IMG/VR virus record: IMGVR_UViG_2897369580_000001
Reading direction: 5' to 3' (one strand)
Length of the DNA stretch: 42,873 nucleotides
Source of the DNA: a virus
Lineage: Duplodnaviria; Heunggongvirae; Uroviricota; Caudoviricetes
Shown: in pieces, positions 24,901-30,301 of the stretch
How the letters are laid out: each line of letters opens with the position of its first letter
How positions within the stretch are numbered: position 1 is the stretch's first letter
Notes under the pieces: model-generated
The model's input: only the letters and a program-made list of their open reading frames with translations
What the model was told of the DNA's origin: nothing
Database searches by the model: none
Translations under genes and position numbers: made by a program

Positions 24901-25389
24901 ATGGCTACCAACCCAAGAGAGCACGCCCGGCGAGTGCTGGACACGTTCTGGTGCGGGCGTGGTTTCCCTGTTGATCCAGCGAAAATTGCTCACGACATGG
25001 GATTAGATGTTTTTATTACCGATCTTCCTGGGAAAGTTTCTGGCGCACTGATTAAACAAAAAGATCAAGATCCAGCGATCTTTCTAAACAGTGATGACAA
25101 CAAAGTTCGTCAACGTTTTTCATGTGGGCATGAGTTGGGGCATTACATCGCCCGGCAAGCATCGCATAGCGATGAATATGAGTACGTTGATTTACGTGGC
25201 GAAACCGCAAGCGCCGGAACGCATCCTGATGAAATTTTTGCAAACAAGTTCGCAGCAGAACTTCTGATGCCGGTAGATGAGGTCAGAAAACTGCACGCTG
25301 ACGGTCAACCAAGTTATATAATGGCGCATTATTTTGGCGTATCTGACGATGCGATGACTTATCGTTTAAAGAACTTGAGGTTGGGGTAA
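24901..25389 (+). CDS. ImmA/IrrE family metallo-endopeptidase (DUF955/COG2856-like)
   Basis: 162 aa; GGAGGAG RBS; HEXXH in ...SCGHELGHYIARQ... typical of ImmA/IrrE zinc peptidases. Confidence 0.8.
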   Translation: MATNPREHARRVLDTFWCGRGFPVDPAKIAHDMGLDVFITDLPGKVSGALIKQKDQDPAIFLNSDDNKVRQRFSCGHELGHYIARQASHSDEYEYVDLRGETASAGTHPDEIFANKFAAELLMPVDEVRKLHADGQPSYIMAHYFGVSDDAMTYRLKNLRLG

Positions 25390-25398
25390 CGCTTTAAA

Positions 25399-26004
25399 AT
25401 GCCATCGGATGACGATTTTAACAGCCGTTTCAAACAGGAAGTAGCACGCAGACTGAAGGATTCCCTCAACCTACACCGTCAGTTAGCAGAAGAGGTTGAG
25501 CCGGAGGACGATGAAACTCCGGTTCAGTCTCCTGACGAAGCTTCACCTCAGCCAAAGGTTTCGCACGCCCCCAAAAAAACGGCTGTCCGTATTCGCGGAA
25601 TAGCCAGAAAAAGAGCTGCCGAAGCTCGCAAAATGGCTGTAGCTGCGTCTAGCAAAAGAATTCCAACTGCTACACCCTCTCAACAAGTCACCCGTACTGA
25701 GAGTAAAATCTTGACCGAGTTCACATCTGTGAAACAGGTGAATTCACTTGATACCGAGCATGAGCGCAAACAACTCAACAACAAAGATTTTGAAGCAGAA
25801 ATCGCTCTAAAAAAACGATACGGGAAATGGTTCCTGATTATCCTTGCTTTCCAACTTCTGATAATGAATGGTGTATTTATTGCCGACGGCGCAGGTAAGC
25901 TGGAATTTGAGGATTTAACACTACAGTTGTACATGGGCGGTACTTTGACAGAGGTATTCGGCCTCGTGCTGGTCGTGACAAAATACCTTTTTAAACGCAA
26001 GTAA
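25399..26004 (+). CDS. Membrane protein with charged N-terminal region and two C-terminal TM helices (putative effector)
   Basis: 201 aa; starts 9 bp after peptidase stop; C-terminal hydrophobic helices; last 72 bp duplicated at 29355..29426. Confidence 0.65.
   Translation: MPSDDDFNSRFKQEVARRLKDSLNLHRQLAEEVEPEDDETPVQSPDEASPQPKVSHAPKKTAVRIRGIARKRAAEARKMAVAASSKRIPTATPSQQVTRTESKILTEFTSVKQVNSLDTEHERKQLNNKDFEAEIALKKRYGKWFLIILAFQLLIMNGVFIADGAGKLEFEDLTLQLYMGGTLTEVFGLVLVVTKYLFKRK
25933..26004 (+). repeat. Direct repeat copy 1 (3' end of membrane-protein gene)
   Basis: 72 bp, about 90% identical to 29355..29426; encodes MGGTLTEVFGLVLVVTKYLFKRK*. Confidence 0.9.
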
Positions 26005-26028
26005 CTCTCTCGGTCCAACAGTCTTTCG

Positions 26029-26050
26029 AAGGCCCTGATCAAAGGGCCTT
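26029..26050 (+). terminator. Terminator-like hairpin after membrane-protein gene
   Basis: AAGGCCCT-gatcaa-AGGGCCTT. Confidence 0.45.
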
Positions 26051-26248
26051 GATAAATTAGCAGTGCGTTGAAAACAGATAGTTATTCCCATCAGTTCCAA
26101 CGTAATACACATCAAAAAAATCACCATTCTTTTGCTCTAACGTCAACACCTACCCTTAAAAAAATAATTCTCCAAGAATGAGAAAGTTATTGTGTGTATT
26201 AGATAAGATATGAGCTGACACATCTATGGCGTGGAGCCAAATTTAATA

Positions 26249-26282
26249 TGACAGTCCGCTCTGTGCCATAAGCGGACTGTCA
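26249..26282. terminator. Perfect 12-bp inverted repeat hairpin between convergent genes
   Basis: TGACAGTCCGCT-ctgtgccata-AGCGGACTGTCA. Confidence 0.5.
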
Positions 26283-26466
26283 ATAAACAGATTCACTTGT
26301 AAATCTTGAAGCTATACATATTTACTTTCAATGATAAATAAAAGAACTATCCAAAAATCACTGAGAGCATATTTTAACTAACCCTCCGCTACTATTAACA
26401 TAAATTTCACCCAACCATAATTAAATTGATACATATAGCAACTTACCTTGATACGAATCATCTGGG

Positions 26467-27165
26467 TTATATTTTTCCATATTTTTTTCCGTCAAATCGA
26501 ATCATGCCAGGATCAAGAAAATTAATTAAATCGATTAACGCGTGCTGTATTCTGATTAGCCTTTCTTTATAAATTCCGATATCTCTTGTCATATTTATCA
26601 CTTCATTGTTTAAATCTAAAAAAAATGGCTCATTGATAAAGCAATTTTCCTTTGTGAAACTGCCGTAACCTATGCAATCAAATCCAGTATCTGTTGATAT
26701 CAGCATCTTTTCTGCAATAGCTCTCTGCTCTCCTATGAAAAACATAAAATACTGACCAAAGACGTCTGTTTGGATTAATGAGTTAATATTGTTCTGTAAT
26801 CTAATAAACTCCCTCATTTTTTTATTTTTTTCTAGGCTAAGGTATTGAATGTCTATGCGGGCAGCTTCTGTCCATGCAAAAAACTGGGAAAAAAGAAAAA
26901 CAGTATTGTTGATAACATAATCTTGTTGGCGCTTATTCCCATTATGATAAAACTCTTCAATGAACCCCAATTCTAATATATTATAAATACGGCTTTGTAA
27001 GTCTGAAGCTGAGCGAATTAACGGTTCAATATAGTACTGATGTTTTCTCCTTACATCCAGTGATTCATTGAGCTTGTTTATTCTATTCTGATTATAAGTA
27101 GATATAGCAATAGAGATTATAGCTATTGCACCACTAATAAAGCTTGAAATTAATGCCGTACCCAT
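26467..27165 (-). CDS. AT-rich membrane-anchored protein of unknown function (defense/exclusion candidate)
   Basis: 232 aa; N-terminal TM helix ALISSFISGAIAIISIAISTY; Asn/Ile/Lys-rich; sits in visibly AT-rich cassette. Confidence 0.6.
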   Translation of the reverse strand: MGTALISSFISGAIAIISIAISTYNQNRINKLNESLDVRRKHQYYIEPLIRSASDLQSRIYNILELGFIEEFYHNGNKRQQDYVINNTVFLFSQFFAWTEAARIDIQYLSLEKNKKMREFIRLQNNINSLIQTDVFGQYFMFFIGEQRAIAEKMLISTDTGFDCIGYGSFTKENCFINEPFFLDLNNEVINMTRDIGIYKERLIRIQHALIDLINFLDPGMIRFDGKKYGKI

Positions 27166-28352
27166 CTAAAAGTCCTTTGATTCTTGCTTGGTTAACAAAA
27201 TGACATAATTTTATTTAATGCCATAACAACTTAACAATATATCATAATATGATTATTATGGTGTAGCTTGTCGCATCTACGCTCCATTACAAACAGATGT
27301 AAGATATAACCTATATGTTTTAGCCAGCAAATTCGAAAGCATTCAAAGTAGTCTCATCGAACTCTCGAAACCCTATGTCTTCGGGTATAAAATATTTAAA
27401 TCCATTTGCATAATATCGACTCATGTTTATTATATTCTCCCCATTCACCATTAAGATTTGACATTATTTTCAACAATCGGTTATTGCAAGATTGAAATAT
27501 ATTTTTACTTGACACAATATTCCATGTAGCCCAGCGATTCGACTTACCCCCAACTATACGGACAATCTAAATTAAATCGATGATTTTTTGATACATTCTC
27601 CTCTCTCCATTACTTTATGTTTTTGTTCCCCAAAAATACCTTGCTCTCTAAAAAATAATTGTTCTTTAAGTTCAAAATCGAGATCTACATGAGCGTTAGA
27701 TACAAAGCTAATATGTTGAAATGTCTTTCCCCCCCCATAACGGCATTGTTATCTAAACTATGTTACACAAATATAATATTACCCTTTCAACGTAATCCAA
27801 GAATAAGATTAATGCCATTATATATATCATAAATATGATATTTTGTATATTTTTATCATTTAGCCTTGATTGTACTAGGTGTACTCTCAACGAAGTAGGG
27901 AAAGTCTGTTCCTCGCTCACAGCTGCCCTTCAGTAAGCGAAAAAATGCCTACTCGGTGCCATATACAGCCATTGTTATTAACAGCAGGGAATAATTCAAA
28001 ACTGAAATTAAATATCTACCTTTTACAGTAGAAATAGTTCCTCCAGGACACTATCCATTGCCGGGCACAATCACTCGGGGTATAACGATATAAAATATGT
28101 TCATGATAGTGCAGGTTCGTATATTAAGTTCAGCAGCGAAAACATGCCTTACAGGTTTCCGGTTTTGGGAGCGTCGTTACAGGATCCTGCGCATACCGTT
28201 CCCATCTGTTGAATTAAAGGTTTCACAGCCTTTGCCGATATCACCTTTTACCTTACCTGTGATGCGTTCAGTGCTCAGCGTTGTTTACTGTAGCTCTCGG
28301 GACTGATTACAGACCGCGTCTTAAAAACCAATCCTTACTCTAAAGGGAATTC

Positions 28353-29276
28353 ATGAGATTAAAATACTCAGTACTCTTACTCGCCATTGCCCTTACAGGC
28401 TGTGATAACAAAAAAGATGAGATCGGTTGTTCTTCGGAAATAACCCAGTCAGCTCTCATGGATTTATTAAAAAAATCTGCTTATGAAGGACTCTCTGAAC
28501 AGGTCGATAAATACCCTGATGTCACTAATCAGACCAAACGAAGCACACTGGACAAGATCAAACTAGCCATCTCTGAGATCTCCACAACATCAAGTGACAC
28601 GGGCAGCACAATGAAAACTTGTGAAGGGACCGTGACGATGACTCTATCTGCGAACGAGTACGTCCAGCTTTCAGATGCTTACAGAAAGAATTTTAATCGT
28701 AATCTCGATAAGCAAATGGAAAGCCTGTTTTTGGAGAACAACGCAAACGCCTTTTCAAAACGTATCACCTACACCGTGCAGGCGACCGACGATCAGAAAA
28801 ACGTTTTTGTAAAAACCTCTACTGATAATCCGATATCAGTGGGCGCCGCTTTACTGACATCGCTTTCCATTATCACCCCGATCGTTGAGCAGCAGAAAAT
28901 CCAGCAGGCTAAGGATGCCCAACAGAGTCAAATTGAAGCGGAACAACAGGTGCAACTCAGGGCGCAAGAACAGGCTAAGTATGAGGCGGAGAAGCAAATA
29001 GAGAGACAGGCACAACTTCAGCCGCAAAAAGCTGACAACCTTGATCAGTCCCGAATGGCATTTGCGAATGCCGACTCTGATTTGAGTACCGTCTGGAGCA
29101 AGTTAACCCCGGCGAAGAAAAAAGATTTGCTGCCTTCTCAGCGTCAGTGGATCAAAACTAAGGATGCTATGTGCGGTAAAGTTTCAATGCAGGGAACAGA
29201 TGCTGAAGTCAAGAAAATGGTCGACTGCCAGACGCAAATGACCCTTTCAAGAATCGCTTTCCTCAGAAACCAATAA
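28353..29276 (+). CDS. Lipoprotein with C-terminal DUF1311 (LprI-like) domain
   Basis: 307 aa; signal peptide with lipobox LTGC; Gln-rich coiled-coil middle; C-terminal ...QRQWIKTKDAMCG...DCQTQMTLSRIAFLRN two-Cys motif. Confidence 0.6.
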   Translation: MRLKYSVLLLAIALTGCDNKKDEIGCSSEITQSALMDLLKKSAYEGLSEQVDKYPDVTNQTKRSTLDKIKLAISEISTTSSDTGSTMKTCEGTVTMTLSANEYVQLSDAYRKNFNRNLDKQMESLFLENNANAFSKRITYTVQATDDQKNVFVKTSTDNPISVGAALLTSLSIITPIVEQQKIQQAKDAQQSQIEAEQQVQLRAQEQAKYEAEKQIERQAQLQPQKADNLDQSRMAFANADSDLSTVWSKLTPAKKKDLLPSQRQWIKTKDAMCGKVSMQGTDAEVKKMVDCQTQMTLSRIAFLRNQ

Positions 29277-29323: not shown

Positions 29324-29354
29324 TAGTCATCAAGTGCATATGTAACTGTTTTAT

Positions 29355-29426
29355 ATGGGCGGTACTTTGACAGAGGTATTCGGTCTCGTGCTGGTCGTGG
29401 TCAAATACCTTTTTAAGCGCAAATAG
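29355..29426 (+). repeat. Direct repeat copy 2 (orphan 3' gene end; 23-codon ORF)
   Basis: About 90% identical to 25933..26004; preceded by in-frame stop; encodes MGGTLTEVFGLVLVVVKYLFKRK*. Confidence 0.9.
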
Positions 29427-29450: not shown

Positions 29451-30269
29451 TCAAAATGCTGAATTAGCAACGGATATAGCCGACTTTTTCCCCATTACCA
29501 TCAATTTATCCAGTGTCATACTTCGCAGATTGTCGCTGTGGATCACCAGATACCCTGCCCGCTCAGCGATCTCTTTGAAAGCGTCAAAGGTCATCAGATG
29601 TTCGCCTTTGGCAACATGGCGCATCCCGGTCACTTTTCCATTTTTGATAGTGGTGATAAAAGAAAAATCTGGAATGGTTGGGTGATTTTCATCGAGTAGC
29701 AGGCAGTGGATGTATTCAATCGCCTCTAACATTTGCGTCTGTGACAGTTGTTCTATGTGAGAGACGGCGAAGCGTTGATGAATCATGGTGTAGGCATCGG
29801 GATACATCATGCCTTTCTTGCCGACCAGTATATTAACGGCATCACGCAAGGGAGTACGGTCATCGGTAGTTGTACTCCGCCTCTCTGGACGCTGGCTAAA
29901 ATAACAATCTTCCAGCTTTTCGAAAACTTCCCAGGCCTGTTCTGTTTCCAGCATTTTGGCATGGCGAGCTGCGCCGCGTTCTGTCCAGAGAATGAGGGAT
30001 CGGGTATGTTTAGCAACTGACTGACTATCTGTCAGTCTGTTTTTGAAGTCGCGTAATTCATTACCTTCCAGCTTAAAAAAATGCTTTCCTACGACAAATC
30101 TGGCGATGTTGCGCTTGAAGTTTTGCTGGATACCATTTACTTCCGTGCCATACAAACTGGCAAGCAATTCAGTAGTGATGACGGGAAGTTGGTTATGATG
30201 TAGCGGAGAAAGGGATTCCGCAGATATTTGGACTGTCATCGCAGTGGCCTCACTTAGTGTTTTTTTCAT
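29451..30269 (-). CDS. Phage antirepressor-like protein (ORF6N/Ant N-terminal-like domain)
   Basis: 272 aa from ATG at 30269; N-terminal ...LPVITTELLASLYGTEVNGIQQNFKRNIARFVVGKHFFKL... resembles Ant/ORF6N regions. Confidence 0.55.
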   Translation of the reverse strand: MKKTLSEATAMTVQISAESLSPLHHNQLPVITTELLASLYGTEVNGIQQNFKRNIARFVVGKHFFKLEGNELRDFKNRLTDSQSVAKHTRSLILWTERGAARHAKMLETEQAWEVFEKLEDCYFSQRPERRSTTTDDRTPLRDAVNILVGKKGMMYPDAYTMIHQRFAVSHIEQLSQTQMLEAIEYIHCLLLDENHPTIPDFSFITTIKNGKVTGMRHVAKGEHLMTFDAFKEIAERAGYLVIHSDNLRSMTLDKLMVMGKKSAISVANSAF

Positions 30270-30301
30270 CACCACCAGCGACGCCAATCATCTGGTGGTG
30301 A
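30269..30301. promoter_or_regulatory. 10-bp inverted repeat abutting antirepressor start codon
   Basis: TCACCACCAG-N13-CTGGTGGTGA; 3' arm contains the probable RBS. Confidence 0.4.

What the first reader, a model, noticed from the sequence alone, without database searches (positions are those of the whole stretch)
26467..27165. AT-rich, membrane-anchored 232-aa protein of unknown function
The protein has one N-terminal TM helix and an Asn/Ile/Lys-rich soluble domain. It sits alone on the minus strand, flanked by long AT-rich non-coding DNA and a perfect 12-bp hairpin (26249..26282). Composition and context mark it as horizontally acquired cargo; single-gene abortive-infection or exclusion proteins often look like this. 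No family recognised.
Basis: partly seen in the sequence, partly recalled or inferred. Interest (0 to 1): 0.6.

Follow-up and report, generated by a model that had tools for sequence, protein, structure and literature searches.

The report
Stand-alone relative of RT-defence membrane protein
This prophage gene encodes a membrane-anchored protein of a very large uncharacterised family, here linked by remote homology to the membrane partner needed by a reverse-transcriptase anti-phage system, so it is probably a one-gene phage-exclusion factor, though no phenotype has been measured.

Summary
The ORF (26467-27165, minus strand, 232 aa) is real, has a good RBS and is under purifying selection (dN/dS 0.10-0.25). 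It has one N-terminal TM helix, predicted N-out/C-in, and a confidently modelled cytoplasmic helical domain (pLDDT 87). It lies in a ~1.7-kb AT-rich cassette (about 26210-27945) inside a lambdoid prophage of E. coli ST131. The same cassette sits at the Z/fun lysogenic-conversion locus of P2-like phages, where P2-EC58 ORF1 is named 'putative lysogenic protein'.

The protein matches phrog_5606 full length and belongs to a family of about 1,900 clusters (50% identity) across many phyla, nearly always single-domain with no conserved neighbour. The new result is solid remote homology to the 1TM partner of the validated UG5-large RT-nitrilase + 1TM system: hhalign 96%, E 1.5e-9; reciprocal HMMs hit 29/29 and 260/268; the order of secondary-structure elements matches. 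No RT is encoded here.

The upstream 'non-coding' DNA is a dead 150-aa PD-(D/E)xK-like gene. The hairpin is real and marks the cassette's left end.

Best reading: an autonomous membrane phage-exclusion or abortive-infection protein. This is inferred, not shown.

The parts
26467..27165 (-). Gene for a 232-aa single-pass membrane protein: TM helix at about residues 3-24, a long stalk helix to residue 65, and a cytoplasmic helical domain with a small beta-hairpin at 155-164. It is a stand-alone member of the 'lysogenic protein'/phrog_5606 family.
   Evidence: ORF. phrog_5606, E 7e-163. 24 invariant columns among 44 homologs. AF2 pLDDT 87.1, pTM 0.80. dN/dS 0.10-0.25. TM and K/R distribution. Homology to the RT-associated 1TM family.
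27173..27178 (-). Shine-Dalgarno sequence AAAGGA, 7 nt upstream of the ATG.
   Evidence: Read from the sequence. It corresponds to the RBS annotated in P2-EC58.
26249..26282 (.). Stable hairpin (13-bp stem, 8-nt loop) 185 nt downstream of the stop codon, at the left end of the cassette. It could act as a terminator for the minus-strand gene, although the U-tract is weak. It is part of the 'left inverted repeat' annotated in P2-EC58.
   Evidence: (-28.6 kcal/mol, z -5.3). In viral contigs the exact hairpin is found only together with this cassette. P2-EC58 has a related hairpin at the other cassette end; in the window the right-end copy is truncated.
26210..27945 (.). AT-rich mobile cassette (GC 0.324) shared with the Z-region of P2-like phages. 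It consists of the left hairpin, the 1TM gene, the pseudogene and a remnant of the right repeat. Boundaries are approximate.
   Evidence: megablast to AJ512683, 86.7% over window 26211-27923. Pairwise alignment. Viral contig L113. P2-like prophage context in L117.
27320..27733 (-). Pseudogene of a 150-aa PD-(D/E)xK-like family (motif FDLG...VECK in intact copies). It is a decayed passenger of the cassette, not a partner of the 1TM gene.
   Evidence: Three-frame reading. The reconstruction from L012 finds 1,551 intact homologs, up to 87% identical. tblastn places it at window 27730-27335, E 7e-18. Intact copies are solitary. It is absent from the other loci held that carry a family member; its only matches outside its own loci are the E. 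coli cassette copies.
25923..26003 (+). Left copy of an 81-nt direct repeat, which is the 3' end of ORF 25399-26004. Together with the right copy it brackets the 3.4-kb accessory block made of the cassette and the LprI-family gene.
   Evidence: 89% identity; right copy at 29345-29425. Also seen in viral contigs L114 and L115.
29345..29425 (+). Right copy of the 81-nt direct repeat, an orphan 3' gene end left as a recombination scar.

Best explanation
The ORF encodes an autonomous, membrane-anchored phage-exclusion or abortive-infection protein carried as a lysogenic-conversion 'moron'.

Shown:
- It is a real, selected gene on an AT-rich cassette that moves between P2-like phages (Z/fun locus) and a lambdoid prophage of ST131.
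- It has one N-terminal TM helix with a predicted cytoplasmic helical domain.
- It belongs to a very large family that almost always occurs as a lone gene.
- That family is homologous over its conserved core, and matches in the order of secondary-structure elements along the whole length, to the 1TM protein that the UG5-large RT-nitrilase defence system is reported to need for immunity.

Inferred:
- The cytoplasmic domain has a cluster of invariant polar residues (R59, Y83, T88, Q94, W98, R103, E146-Q147, C164, Y167, all shared with the RT-associated family). This domain senses a trigger: a phage product, or a perturbation that the RT-nitrilase supplies in trans in the two-gene system.
- On triggering, it drives the N-terminal helix to oligomerise and compromise the inner membrane, or to block phage DNA entry, which stops phage growth in the lysogen.
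- Because the stand-alone family is about 65 times more diverse than the RT-linked one (roughly 1,900 against 29 clusters), the RT-nitrilase systems probably recruited a member of this family, not the reverse.
For: - Gene reality and selection.
- Topology: all 44 members of this family and all 17 RT-associated proteins have one N-terminal TM, with 0 K/R before it and 4-5 after it.
- Homology to the RT-associated 1TM protein: PADLOC RTasTM E 1.8e-5. hhalign of the profile against the E101 protein gives 95.6%, E 1.1e-8. Profile against profile gives 96.4%, E 1.5e-9 over 131 columns, with invariant residues coinciding. The reciprocal HMMs hit 29/29 and 260/268, up to 58 bits. The distant member P0129 matches RTasTM nearly end to end. 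The two AF2 models have the same order of helices and hairpin.
- The RT-associated 1TM protein belongs to a validated defence system and is reported as necessary for it (PMC9122126 Table S2A; PMC9226505).
- Autonomy: no neighbour family is shared by more than 7 of 72 loci, and the recurrent ones are housekeeping synteny. No RT-like sequence is found in the window.
- Mobile and defence contexts: the P2 Z/fun locus, which the literature treats as a P2 defence locus (PMC13586616); a P2-like remnant in Providencia; a P4-like remnant at smpB; an ICE; next to SIR2-HerA; toxin-antitoxin modules; type I R-M, JukAB and PDC candidates among the +/-2 neighbours.
Against: - There is no experimental phenotype for any stand-alone member, and I found no literature on it.
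- PADLOC gives only the weak RTasTM hit, and Pfam and NCBIfam give nothing.
- Defence association is modest. Only a minority of about 45 diverse loci have a recognised defence gene within +/-2 genes. Several clades (Acidobacteriota, Cyanobacteria, Heliomicrobium MAGs) keep the gene beside housekeeping genes with local synteny.
- Rare fusions to a serine protease or a LuxR HTH suggest the conserved domain may be a sensor or adaptor and not itself a killing device.
- The mechanism of the RT-associated homolog is unknown as well.
Confidence: 0.45

Rival explanations
1. It is a non-lethal superinfection-exclusion protein. The membrane-anchored protein blocks DNA injection or receptor function of incoming phages at the envelope, without killing the host. 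This would resemble other prophage Sie proteins and the fun(Z) function that occupies the same P2 locus.
For: The gene occupies the P2 Z/fun locus on the opposite strand to the tail genes, as expected for a gene expressed in the lysogen. It is a single-pass inner-membrane protein. It is stably kept at >=99% identity in 407 of 5,426 complete E. coli genomes, which suggests low toxicity. That fun(Z) excludes T5 is from my own knowledge of P2 biology, not from a tool.
Against: Nearly all of the conserved mass is predicted to be cytoplasmic, which is unusual for a protein acting on incoming DNA at the periplasmic face. Its homolog works together with a cytoplasmic RT-nitrilase. The family is widespread outside prophages.
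Confidence: 0.2
2. It is not an immune gene. It is a membrane-anchored sensor, adaptor or stress protein with a cellular role, for example signalling or envelope homeostasis, that is occasionally captured by mobile elements. The RT-nitrilase system merely co-opted one lineage.
For: The family has about 1,900 clusters across many phyla. It shows conserved local synteny with housekeeping genes (hemB, ychF, acyl-CoA carboxylase) in several clades. Fusions to a LuxR-type HTH and to a serine protease look like sensor-output architectures. Only a minority of neighbours are defence genes.
Against: The distribution is patchy (268 hits among 185,579 species genomes with the patterns used). In Enterobacterales it sits repeatedly on phages, satellites, ICEs and islets. 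Its composition is AT-rich and foreign. Its only homolog with functional data is a defence component.
Confidence: 0.2
3. It is an orphaned component. The gene is what remains of a two-gene system, either with the dead upstream nuclease-like gene or with an RT-nitrilase lost from the cassette, and is inactive or works only with a partner encoded elsewhere.
For: A decayed 150-aa PD-(D/E)xK-like gene lies directly upstream on the same strand in every E. coli copy of the cassette examined. The homologous 1TM protein functions with an RT-nitrilase.
Against: The 150-aa family is solitary where it is intact, and apart from the E. coli cassette copies it is absent from the other loci held that carry a 1TM-family member. 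The 1TM gene remains under purifying selection while its neighbour decays. No conserved partner exists across 72 loci. No RT-like sequence is found in the window.
Confidence: 0.1
4. It is a toxin, addiction or lysis-type membrane protein (holin-like, or a type I/V toxin-like function) that stabilises the cassette or aids prophage lysis.
Against: The prophage already has its own holin/endolysin cassette elsewhere. The gene lies outside the late operon, on the opposite strand. No antitoxin candidate is conserved. At 232 aa with a large conserved soluble domain it is unlike holins or small toxins. The ClyA similarity is generic for long helical bundles.
Confidence: 0.05

Closest known systems
1TM partner of the UG5-large RT-nitrilase system (E. 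coli E101, pFR76 'RT-nitrilase + 1TM', Rousset et al. 2022; 'cluster 1858' of Mestre et al. 2022; PADLOC model RTasTM, PDLC03799)
   Same: Both have the same architecture: about 230 aa and one N-terminal TM with the same K/R polarity. The cores are homologous (hhalign 96.4%, E 1.5e-9; reciprocal HMM hits 29/29 and 260/268). They share invariant residues in the motifs Y-x-[IV]-x-x-T-x-F-x-x-x-Q-[FY]-[FL]-x-W-x-x-x-x-R, E-Q-[RK]-x-I-G-[ED] and C-[IM]-x-[YF]-x-x-F. The predicted helices and hairpin come in the same order. Both are carried in phage or satellite hotspots of Enterobacterales.
   Different: No RT-nitrilase is encoded next to it or anywhere in the window. Pairwise identity is only about 21-25%. 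The DLQSR..N motif of the stand-alone family is N-G-x-x-G-R in the RT-linked family. The RT-linked family is tiny and confined to Enterobacterales (29 clusters), while the stand-alone family is huge and spans many phyla.
P2-EC58 Z-region ORF1, 'putative lysogenic protein' (CAD54907, AJ512683; Nilsson et al. 2004)
   Same: It is the same family and the same cassette: 94% nucleotide and 91% amino-acid identity over the ORF, with the flanking hairpin and the decayed upstream gene also shared. This record is the source of the NCBI name 'lysogenic protein'.
   Different: The host element differs: the P2-like Z/fun locus there, a lambdoid prophage accessory region here. The right-hand inverted repeat is intact in P2-EC58 and truncated here. 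The name carries no functional evidence, and the paper itself could not be read.
P2 fun(Z) and other P2 lysogenic-conversion genes (old, tin)
   Same: It occupies the same locus (between G and FI) and has the same logic: an AT-rich, opposite-strand gene expressed from the prophage. The literature treats the Z/fun locus as a P2 defence locus (PMC13586616).
   Different: I did not test sequence relatedness to fun(Z). That fun(Z) acts against T5 is from my own knowledge. old and tin lie at a different locus (PMC9122126).
Drt1b ('cluster 85'), the TM partner of some DRT1/UG1 and UG5-large RT-nitrilases, and Hailong HalA
   Same: These are membrane proteins proposed as effectors of nucleic-acid-synthesising defence enzymes. 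A DNA-gated channel role like that of HalA has been speculated for Drt1b (PMC13275509).
   Different: Homology to cluster 85 was not tested because no sequence was at hand. No HalA-like or channel fold appeared among the PDB matches listed (libraries to April 2026).
ClyA-type alpha-pore-forming toxins
   Different: Scores are in the generic helical-bundle range (FliD, talin and designed bundles score alike), sequence identity is 8%, and ClyA has no N-terminal membrane anchor. I treat this as a lead only.

Membership tests
'Lysogenic protein' family / phrog_5606 (P2-EC58 ORF1-like) | Full-length sequence match to the family profile | tested here: met
   phrog_5606 E 7.1e-163, residues 1-232 against profile 1-232 of 232. 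91% amino-acid identity to P2-EC58 ORF1. 290 homologs, with 24 invariant columns.
'Lysogenic protein' family / phrog_5606 (P2-EC58 ORF1-like) | Single N-terminal TM helix plus a helical domain of about 200 aa | tested here: met
   All 44 aligned members have exactly one TM at the N-terminus. AF2 model with pLDDT 87.
RT-associated 1TM protein (PADLOC RTasTM / cluster 1858 of UG5-large systems) | Sequence homology to the RTasTM profile | tested here: met
   PADLOC E 1.8e-5 (22.4 bits, partial). hhalign 95.6-96.4%. Reciprocal HMM searches. The homology is remote: this protein is a sister family, not a member of the narrow RTasTM cluster.
RT-associated 1TM protein (PADLOC RTasTM / cluster 1858 of UG5-large systems) | Encoded immediately downstream of a UG5-large RT-nitrilase gene | tested here: not met
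   The neighbours are an ImmA/CapP-like peptidase with a 2TM protein, a dead 150-aa gene and an LprI-family gene. tblastn with the first ~430 residues of the E101 UG5 RT (its RT region) finds nothing in the window (best E 3.6). The RT's nitrilase domain was not searched. None of the 72 related loci has a conserved RT neighbour.
RT-associated 1TM protein (PADLOC RTasTM / cluster 1858 of UG5-large systems) | Required for anti-phage immunity of the system | not testable with these tools
   Reported for the E101 system in the literature (PMC9226505 citing Rousset 2022). No data exist for the window protein.
DRT / UG-Abi reverse-transcriptase defence system (as a system) | Presence of a UG/Abi-class reverse transcriptase | tested here: not met
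   No RT-like ORF or YxDD-containing long ORF in the window. The EC958 annotation of +/-8 kb lists none.
Single-gene abortive-infection / superinfection-exclusion proteins of prophages | Prophage-borne accessory gene outside the core modules, with foreign composition | tested here: met
   GC 0.32 against 0.48. It lies in the accessory block bracketed by 81-nt repeats. It sits at the P2 Z/fun locus in other phages.
Single-gene abortive-infection / superinfection-exclusion proteins of prophages | Protects the lysogen against other phages; expressed in the lysogen | not testable with these tools
   This needs plaque, burst and survival assays and transcript data. None were found in the literature searched.
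Known single-gene defence families in PADLOC 2.0 (Abi*, PD-*, HEC-*, Rst_* and others) | Significant match to any such model | tested here: not met
   The only hits are RTasTM (E 1.8e-5) and a chance-level Cas3 hit (E 0.012).

The most novel reading that the evidence does not exclude
The 'lysogenic protein' family is a widespread, autonomous one-protein immune module: an N-out/C-in membrane anchor plus a cytoplasmic sensor domain. It has about 1,900 clusters across at least seven phyla. UG5-large RT-nitrilase systems borrowed their essential membrane component from it, and other lineages fused the same module to a serine protease or an HTH. If so, it would be a new, very common single-gene defence family. 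It would also give a simple handle on the unknown effector step of class 3 DRT systems.
Probability: 0.3. Interest if true: 0.7.

Novelty: new variant of a known kind. Interest (0 to 1): 0.5.

Why it matters
1. It gives a testable function to a gene present in the pandemic ST131 lineage (407 of 5,426 complete E. coli genomes at >=99% identity) and to a family of about 1,900 protein clusters that no domain database describes.
2. The membrane partner of class 3 RT-nitrilase defence systems is reported as necessary in the E. coli E101 UG5-large system, but how it works is unknown. Showing that it is a narrow offshoot of a much larger family that works without any RT suggests the module carries its own activity. 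It also offers simpler one-gene models for studying that activity.
3. It documents a small AT-rich cassette that moves between unrelated temperate phages (P2-like and lambdoid). One of its two genes decays while the other is kept, which is a clear example of selection acting gene by gene inside phage accessory loci.

Tried and rejected
- Pfam, NCBIfam and PDB sequence searches gave nothing for the protein, its profile or the reconstructed upstream product.
- Rfam on 25900-28400 gave no credible RNA, so I dropped the idea that the upstream conserved DNA is an ncRNA once it proved to be a pseudogene.
- I tested a two-gene system (150-aa nuclease-like gene + 1TM) and rejected it. Intact copies are solitary, and the pairing is seen only in the E. 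coli cassette.
- The hairpin as a general hotspot or recombination site flanking varied cargo: the exact-pattern scan of viral contigs found it only with this cassette. Degenerate versions were not searched, so this stays open.
- One PADLOC hit to RT_UG29 among the neighbours of related loci could not be located by motif or BLAST checks. That model also spans primase and nitrilase domains, so I put no weight on it.
- The original P2-EC58 paper (Nilsson et al. 2004) is not held. Supplementary tables of the two P2/P4 hotspot papers contain no member of this family, or are not held.
- I looked for the prophage's name in the EC958 genome paper and did not find one for this locus.
Full report
**1. 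The observation**

The ORF at 26467-27165 on the minus strand exists, starts with ATG and encodes 232 aa. An AAAGGA Shine-Dalgarno sequence lies 7 nt upstream of the start.

The region is compositionally foreign. GC is 0.32 for the ORF and 0.324 for 26210-27945, against 0.482 for the window.

The protein has one strongly hydrophobic N-terminal segment (residues 3-21, Kyte-Doolittle 2.16) and no second one. It is rich in Ile (14.2%), Asn, Leu and Phe (8.2% each), but not in Lys (5.2%).

The hairpin at 26249-26282 is real. It has 12 perfect pairs and folds with a 13-bp stem at -28.6 kcal/mol, z = -5.3. It is unique in the window, and no chance match is expected.

The gene is the only minus-strand gene between 24901-26004 (+) and 28353-29276 (+).

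**2. Where the window comes from**

The DNA is 100% identical to a lambdoid prophage of E. coli ST131 (EC958, JJ1886 and others). There the ORF is EC958_RS10645 / WP_000536231.1, annotated 'hypothetical protein'.

The ORF occurs in 412 of 5,426 complete E. coli genomes, always as one chromosomal copy. In 407 of them it is at least 99% identical.

**3. The gene is part of a small mobile cassette**

Window 26211-27923 is 86.7% identical to GenBank AJ512683, 'Bacteriophage P2-EC58 proviral Z-region, ORF1'. In that record the ORF is called 'putative lysogenic protein' and is flanked by annotated left and right inverted repeats.

The pairwise alignment puts the shared block at about 26210-27945. 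The hairpin is part of the left repeat. In P2-EC58 a related hairpin closes the right end, with 12-nt termini AATCTGACAGTC / GACTGTCAGATT. In the window the homology breaks inside the right repeat, so that end is truncated.

In a complete P2-like prophage (E. coli GDAR2-2) the gene lies on the opposite strand between the tail-fibre assembly gene and the tail-sheath gene. That is the classical Z/fun lysogenic-conversion locus, which the literature counts among P2 defence loci (PMC13586616).

In viral contigs the exact hairpin occurs only together with this cassette.

The whole accessory block of the ST131 prophage (the cassette plus an LprI-family gene) is bracketed by an 81-nt direct repeat. 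The repeat duplicates the 3' end of ORF 25399-26004, and I read it as a recombination scar.

**4. The 'non-coding' upstream DNA is a dead gene**

Reading three frames of the upstream region in the window, in P2-EC58 and in a third cassette copy (L012) revealed related peptide fragments.

Joining two frames of L012 gives a 150-aa product with a PD-(D/E)xK-like signature (FDLG...VECK). That product finds 1,551 intact homologs of about 150 aa, up to 87% identical.

The window copy (about 27320-27733, minus strand) has no start codon, at least two frameshifts and at least four in-frame stops, and its ECK motif has become GGK.

Intact copies elsewhere are solitary. The family is not found next to the 1TM gene in any other locus I held. 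I therefore treat it as a decayed passenger and not as a partner.

The 1TM gene, in contrast, is under purifying selection. dN/dS is 0.25, 0.14 and 0.13 against orthologs at 94%, 87% and 75% nucleotide identity.

**5. The protein family**

- The protein matches phrog_5606 over its full length (E 7e-163, function unknown). It finds 290 homologs in the word-indexed search.
- The exhaustive profile search finds 1,912 cluster representatives at 50% identity, of which 419 have E below 1e-30.
- Members come from Proteobacteria, Acidobacteriota, Cyanobacteria, Actinomycetota, Bacteroidota, Nitrospirota and Firmicutes. The family is patchy: 268 relatives were confirmed among 185,579 species genomes with the patterns used.
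- An alignment of 44 members has 24 invariant columns, mostly polar: D55, Q57, S58, R59, N62, R79, Y83, Q94, W98, E100, R103, E146, Q147, R148, Q207 and D218-P219.
- Every member has one N-terminal TM, with no K/R before it and a median of 4 K/R in the next 20 residues. This predicts an N-out/C-in topology with a cytoplasmic domain.
- AlphaFold2 gives a confident model (pLDDT 87.1, pTM 0.80). A helix spans residues 3-65 (TM plus stalk). A helical bundle follows, with a small beta-hairpin at 155-164.
- Pfam, NCBIfam and PDB sequence searches are empty.

**6. The link to a known defence system**

PADLOC gave one weak hit: RTasTM of the DRT group, E 1.8e-5. I took the actual protein from Table S2A of Rousset et al. 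2022. It is the 229-aa '1 TM' protein 2 of the validated 'RT-nitrilase + 1TM' system of E. coli E101, plasmid pFR76.

- hhalign of my family profile against that protein gives 95.6% probability, E 1.1e-8.
- After building a profile of its own family, profile against profile gives 96.4%, E 1.5e-9 over 131 columns. That family has 29 clusters, all from Enterobacterales.
- The residues invariant in both families coincide: R59/R83, Y83/Y98, T88/T103, Q94/Q109, W98/W113, R103/R118, E146-Q147/E160-Q161, I150-G151/I164-G165, C164/C174, Y167/Y177 and F170/F180.
- The stand-alone family HMM hits 29 of 29 RT-associated proteins. The RT-associated HMM hits 260 of 268 stand-alone proteins, up to 58 bits.
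- A distant fused member (P0129) matches the PADLOC model almost end to end.
- An AF2 model of the RT-associated protein (pLDDT 85.9) has the same succession of elements: TM, long stalk, three helices, a beta-hairpin after the EQ+xIGE helix, then three helices.

I regard the homology as established and the two groups as sister families.

According to the literature, this TM protein ('cluster 1858') is necessary for immunity by the UG5-large system, and its mechanism is unknown (PMC9226505; PMC13436386). For the analogous partner of DRT1, a DNA-gated channel role has only been speculated (PMC13275509).

**7. Autonomy and context**

No RT-like sequence is found in the window or annotated within 8 kb in EC958.

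Across 72 loci from diverse species, no neighbour family recurs in more than 7 loci. The recurrent ones are housekeeping genes (acyl-CoA carboxylase subunits, HemB, YchF, LysR) and reflect clade-level synteny.

In Enterobacterales the gene rides on:
- the P2 Z/fun locus;
- a P2-like remnant in Providencia;
- a P4-like remnant at smpB;
- an ICE;
- a small islet between ytjB and serB.

Elsewhere it is found next to SIR2-HerA and among toxin-antitoxin modules, but also between ordinary metabolic genes.

A PADLOC scan of 138 immediate neighbours from about 45 loci found scattered defence genes: type I R-M, HerA, JukA/JukB, PDC-S14 and PDC-S05. The association is real but modest, and I could not compute a controlled enrichment.

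Rare members are fused to a C-terminal chymotrypsin-fold serine protease (P0129 and P0131; best PDB match 1hpg, E 3e-6) or to a LuxR-type HTH (P0205). The module can therefore be coupled to different outputs.

**8. Interpretation**

What is shown:
- a selected, mobile, AT-rich single gene for an inner-membrane-anchored protein;
- membership of a huge family that is autonomous in nearly all genomes;
- homology to the membrane component of an experimentally validated RT-nitrilase defence system;
- residence in a phage locus known for lysogenic-conversion and exclusion genes.

What is inferred:
- that it protects the lysogen against other phages;
- that its cytoplasmic domain senses a trigger;
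- that the TM helix executes membrane damage or blocks entry.

I give the defence reading as a whole about 0.65. That splits into 0.45 for a triggered membrane effector and 0.20 for non-lethal exclusion. I give about 0.20 to a non-immune sensor or adaptor role, 0.10 to an orphaned component and 0.05 to a toxin or lysis role.

The size contrast (about 1,900 against 29 clusters) suggests that the RT-nitrilase systems recruited a member of this family, not the reverse.

**9. Novelty and score**

The gene has been in GenBank since 2003 under an uninformative name, and the family is unannotated in domain databases. In the papers I could search, I found no description of its relation to the UG5-large TM protein or of its stand-alone nature.

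I classify it as a new variant of a known kind: a stand-alone relative of an RT-associated defence membrane protein. Interest is 0.5. This is a well-supported and testable lead touching an open mechanistic question, but it has no phenotype and no specific fold assignment.

Noticed in passing
window 27320-27733 (-); intact relatives P0269-P0388; loci L015-L024: The pseudogene belongs to an unannotated family of about 150 aa with a PD-(D/E)xK-like signature (FDLG...VECK). The family has 1,551 homologs, about 60% identical across Gamma- and Betaproteobacteria, and no Pfam, NCBIfam or PADLOC match. Intact copies are solitary. In E. coli TA054 one lies beside a UvrD-helicase + Cap4-nuclease + 550-aa gene cluster. 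It may itself be a small single-gene accessory or defence nuclease.
   Followed up: partly
window 24901-25389 (+) and 25399-26004 (+): An ImmA/IrrE-type metallopeptidase matches the PADLOC CapP model (E 2.4e-25) and RmrA models. Ten bases downstream lies a gene for a 201-aa protein with a low-complexity N-terminal half and hydrophobic, probably membrane-spanning, segments near the C-terminus; it has no family match. This looks like a peptidase-regulated membrane effector pair directly left of the cassette.
   Followed up: partly
window 25923-26003 and 29345-29425: An 81-nt direct repeat (89% identity) duplicates the 3' end of ORF 25399-26004. It brackets a 3.4-kb accessory block made of the cassette and the LprI-family lipoprotein gene at 28353-29276. 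This is a scar of modular recombination.
   Followed up: yes
window 29451-30287 (-): An ORF6N/antirepressor-like protein gives weak hits to the PADLOC candidate family PDC-S05 (E 1e-9). It is probably a generic KilA-N/ORF6N domain match.
   Followed up: no
E. coli genomes S9, R10, R13, MSB1_4E, 1162T7 (hits H2-H4, H35, H52): In several ST131 isolates an IS1 element is inserted within or beside the cassette. In MSB1_4E the ORF match is split into two pieces by IS1. The gene is therefore dispensable in at least some clinical isolates.
   Followed up: no
P0129, P0131, P0205 (relatives from the exhaustive search): Rare members of the family are fused at the C-terminus to a chymotrypsin-fold serine protease with a GDSGS motif, or to a LuxR/GerE HTH. 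The TM + helical module can therefore be coupled in cis to different outputs.
   Followed up: partly
neighbours of related loci L025-L073 (alignment A5): One +/-2 neighbour matched the PADLOC RT_UG29 model (E 1.4e-54), but I could not identify which ORF. It may be a primase or nitrilase homolog and not an RT.
   Followed up: partly
L012-L014 (85%-identical cassette copy): This cassette copy sits in a genomic island with an AlpA-type regulator and a DUF4238 gene. DUF4238 is a domain validated as a T7-defence protein in Rousset et al. 2022.
   Followed up: no
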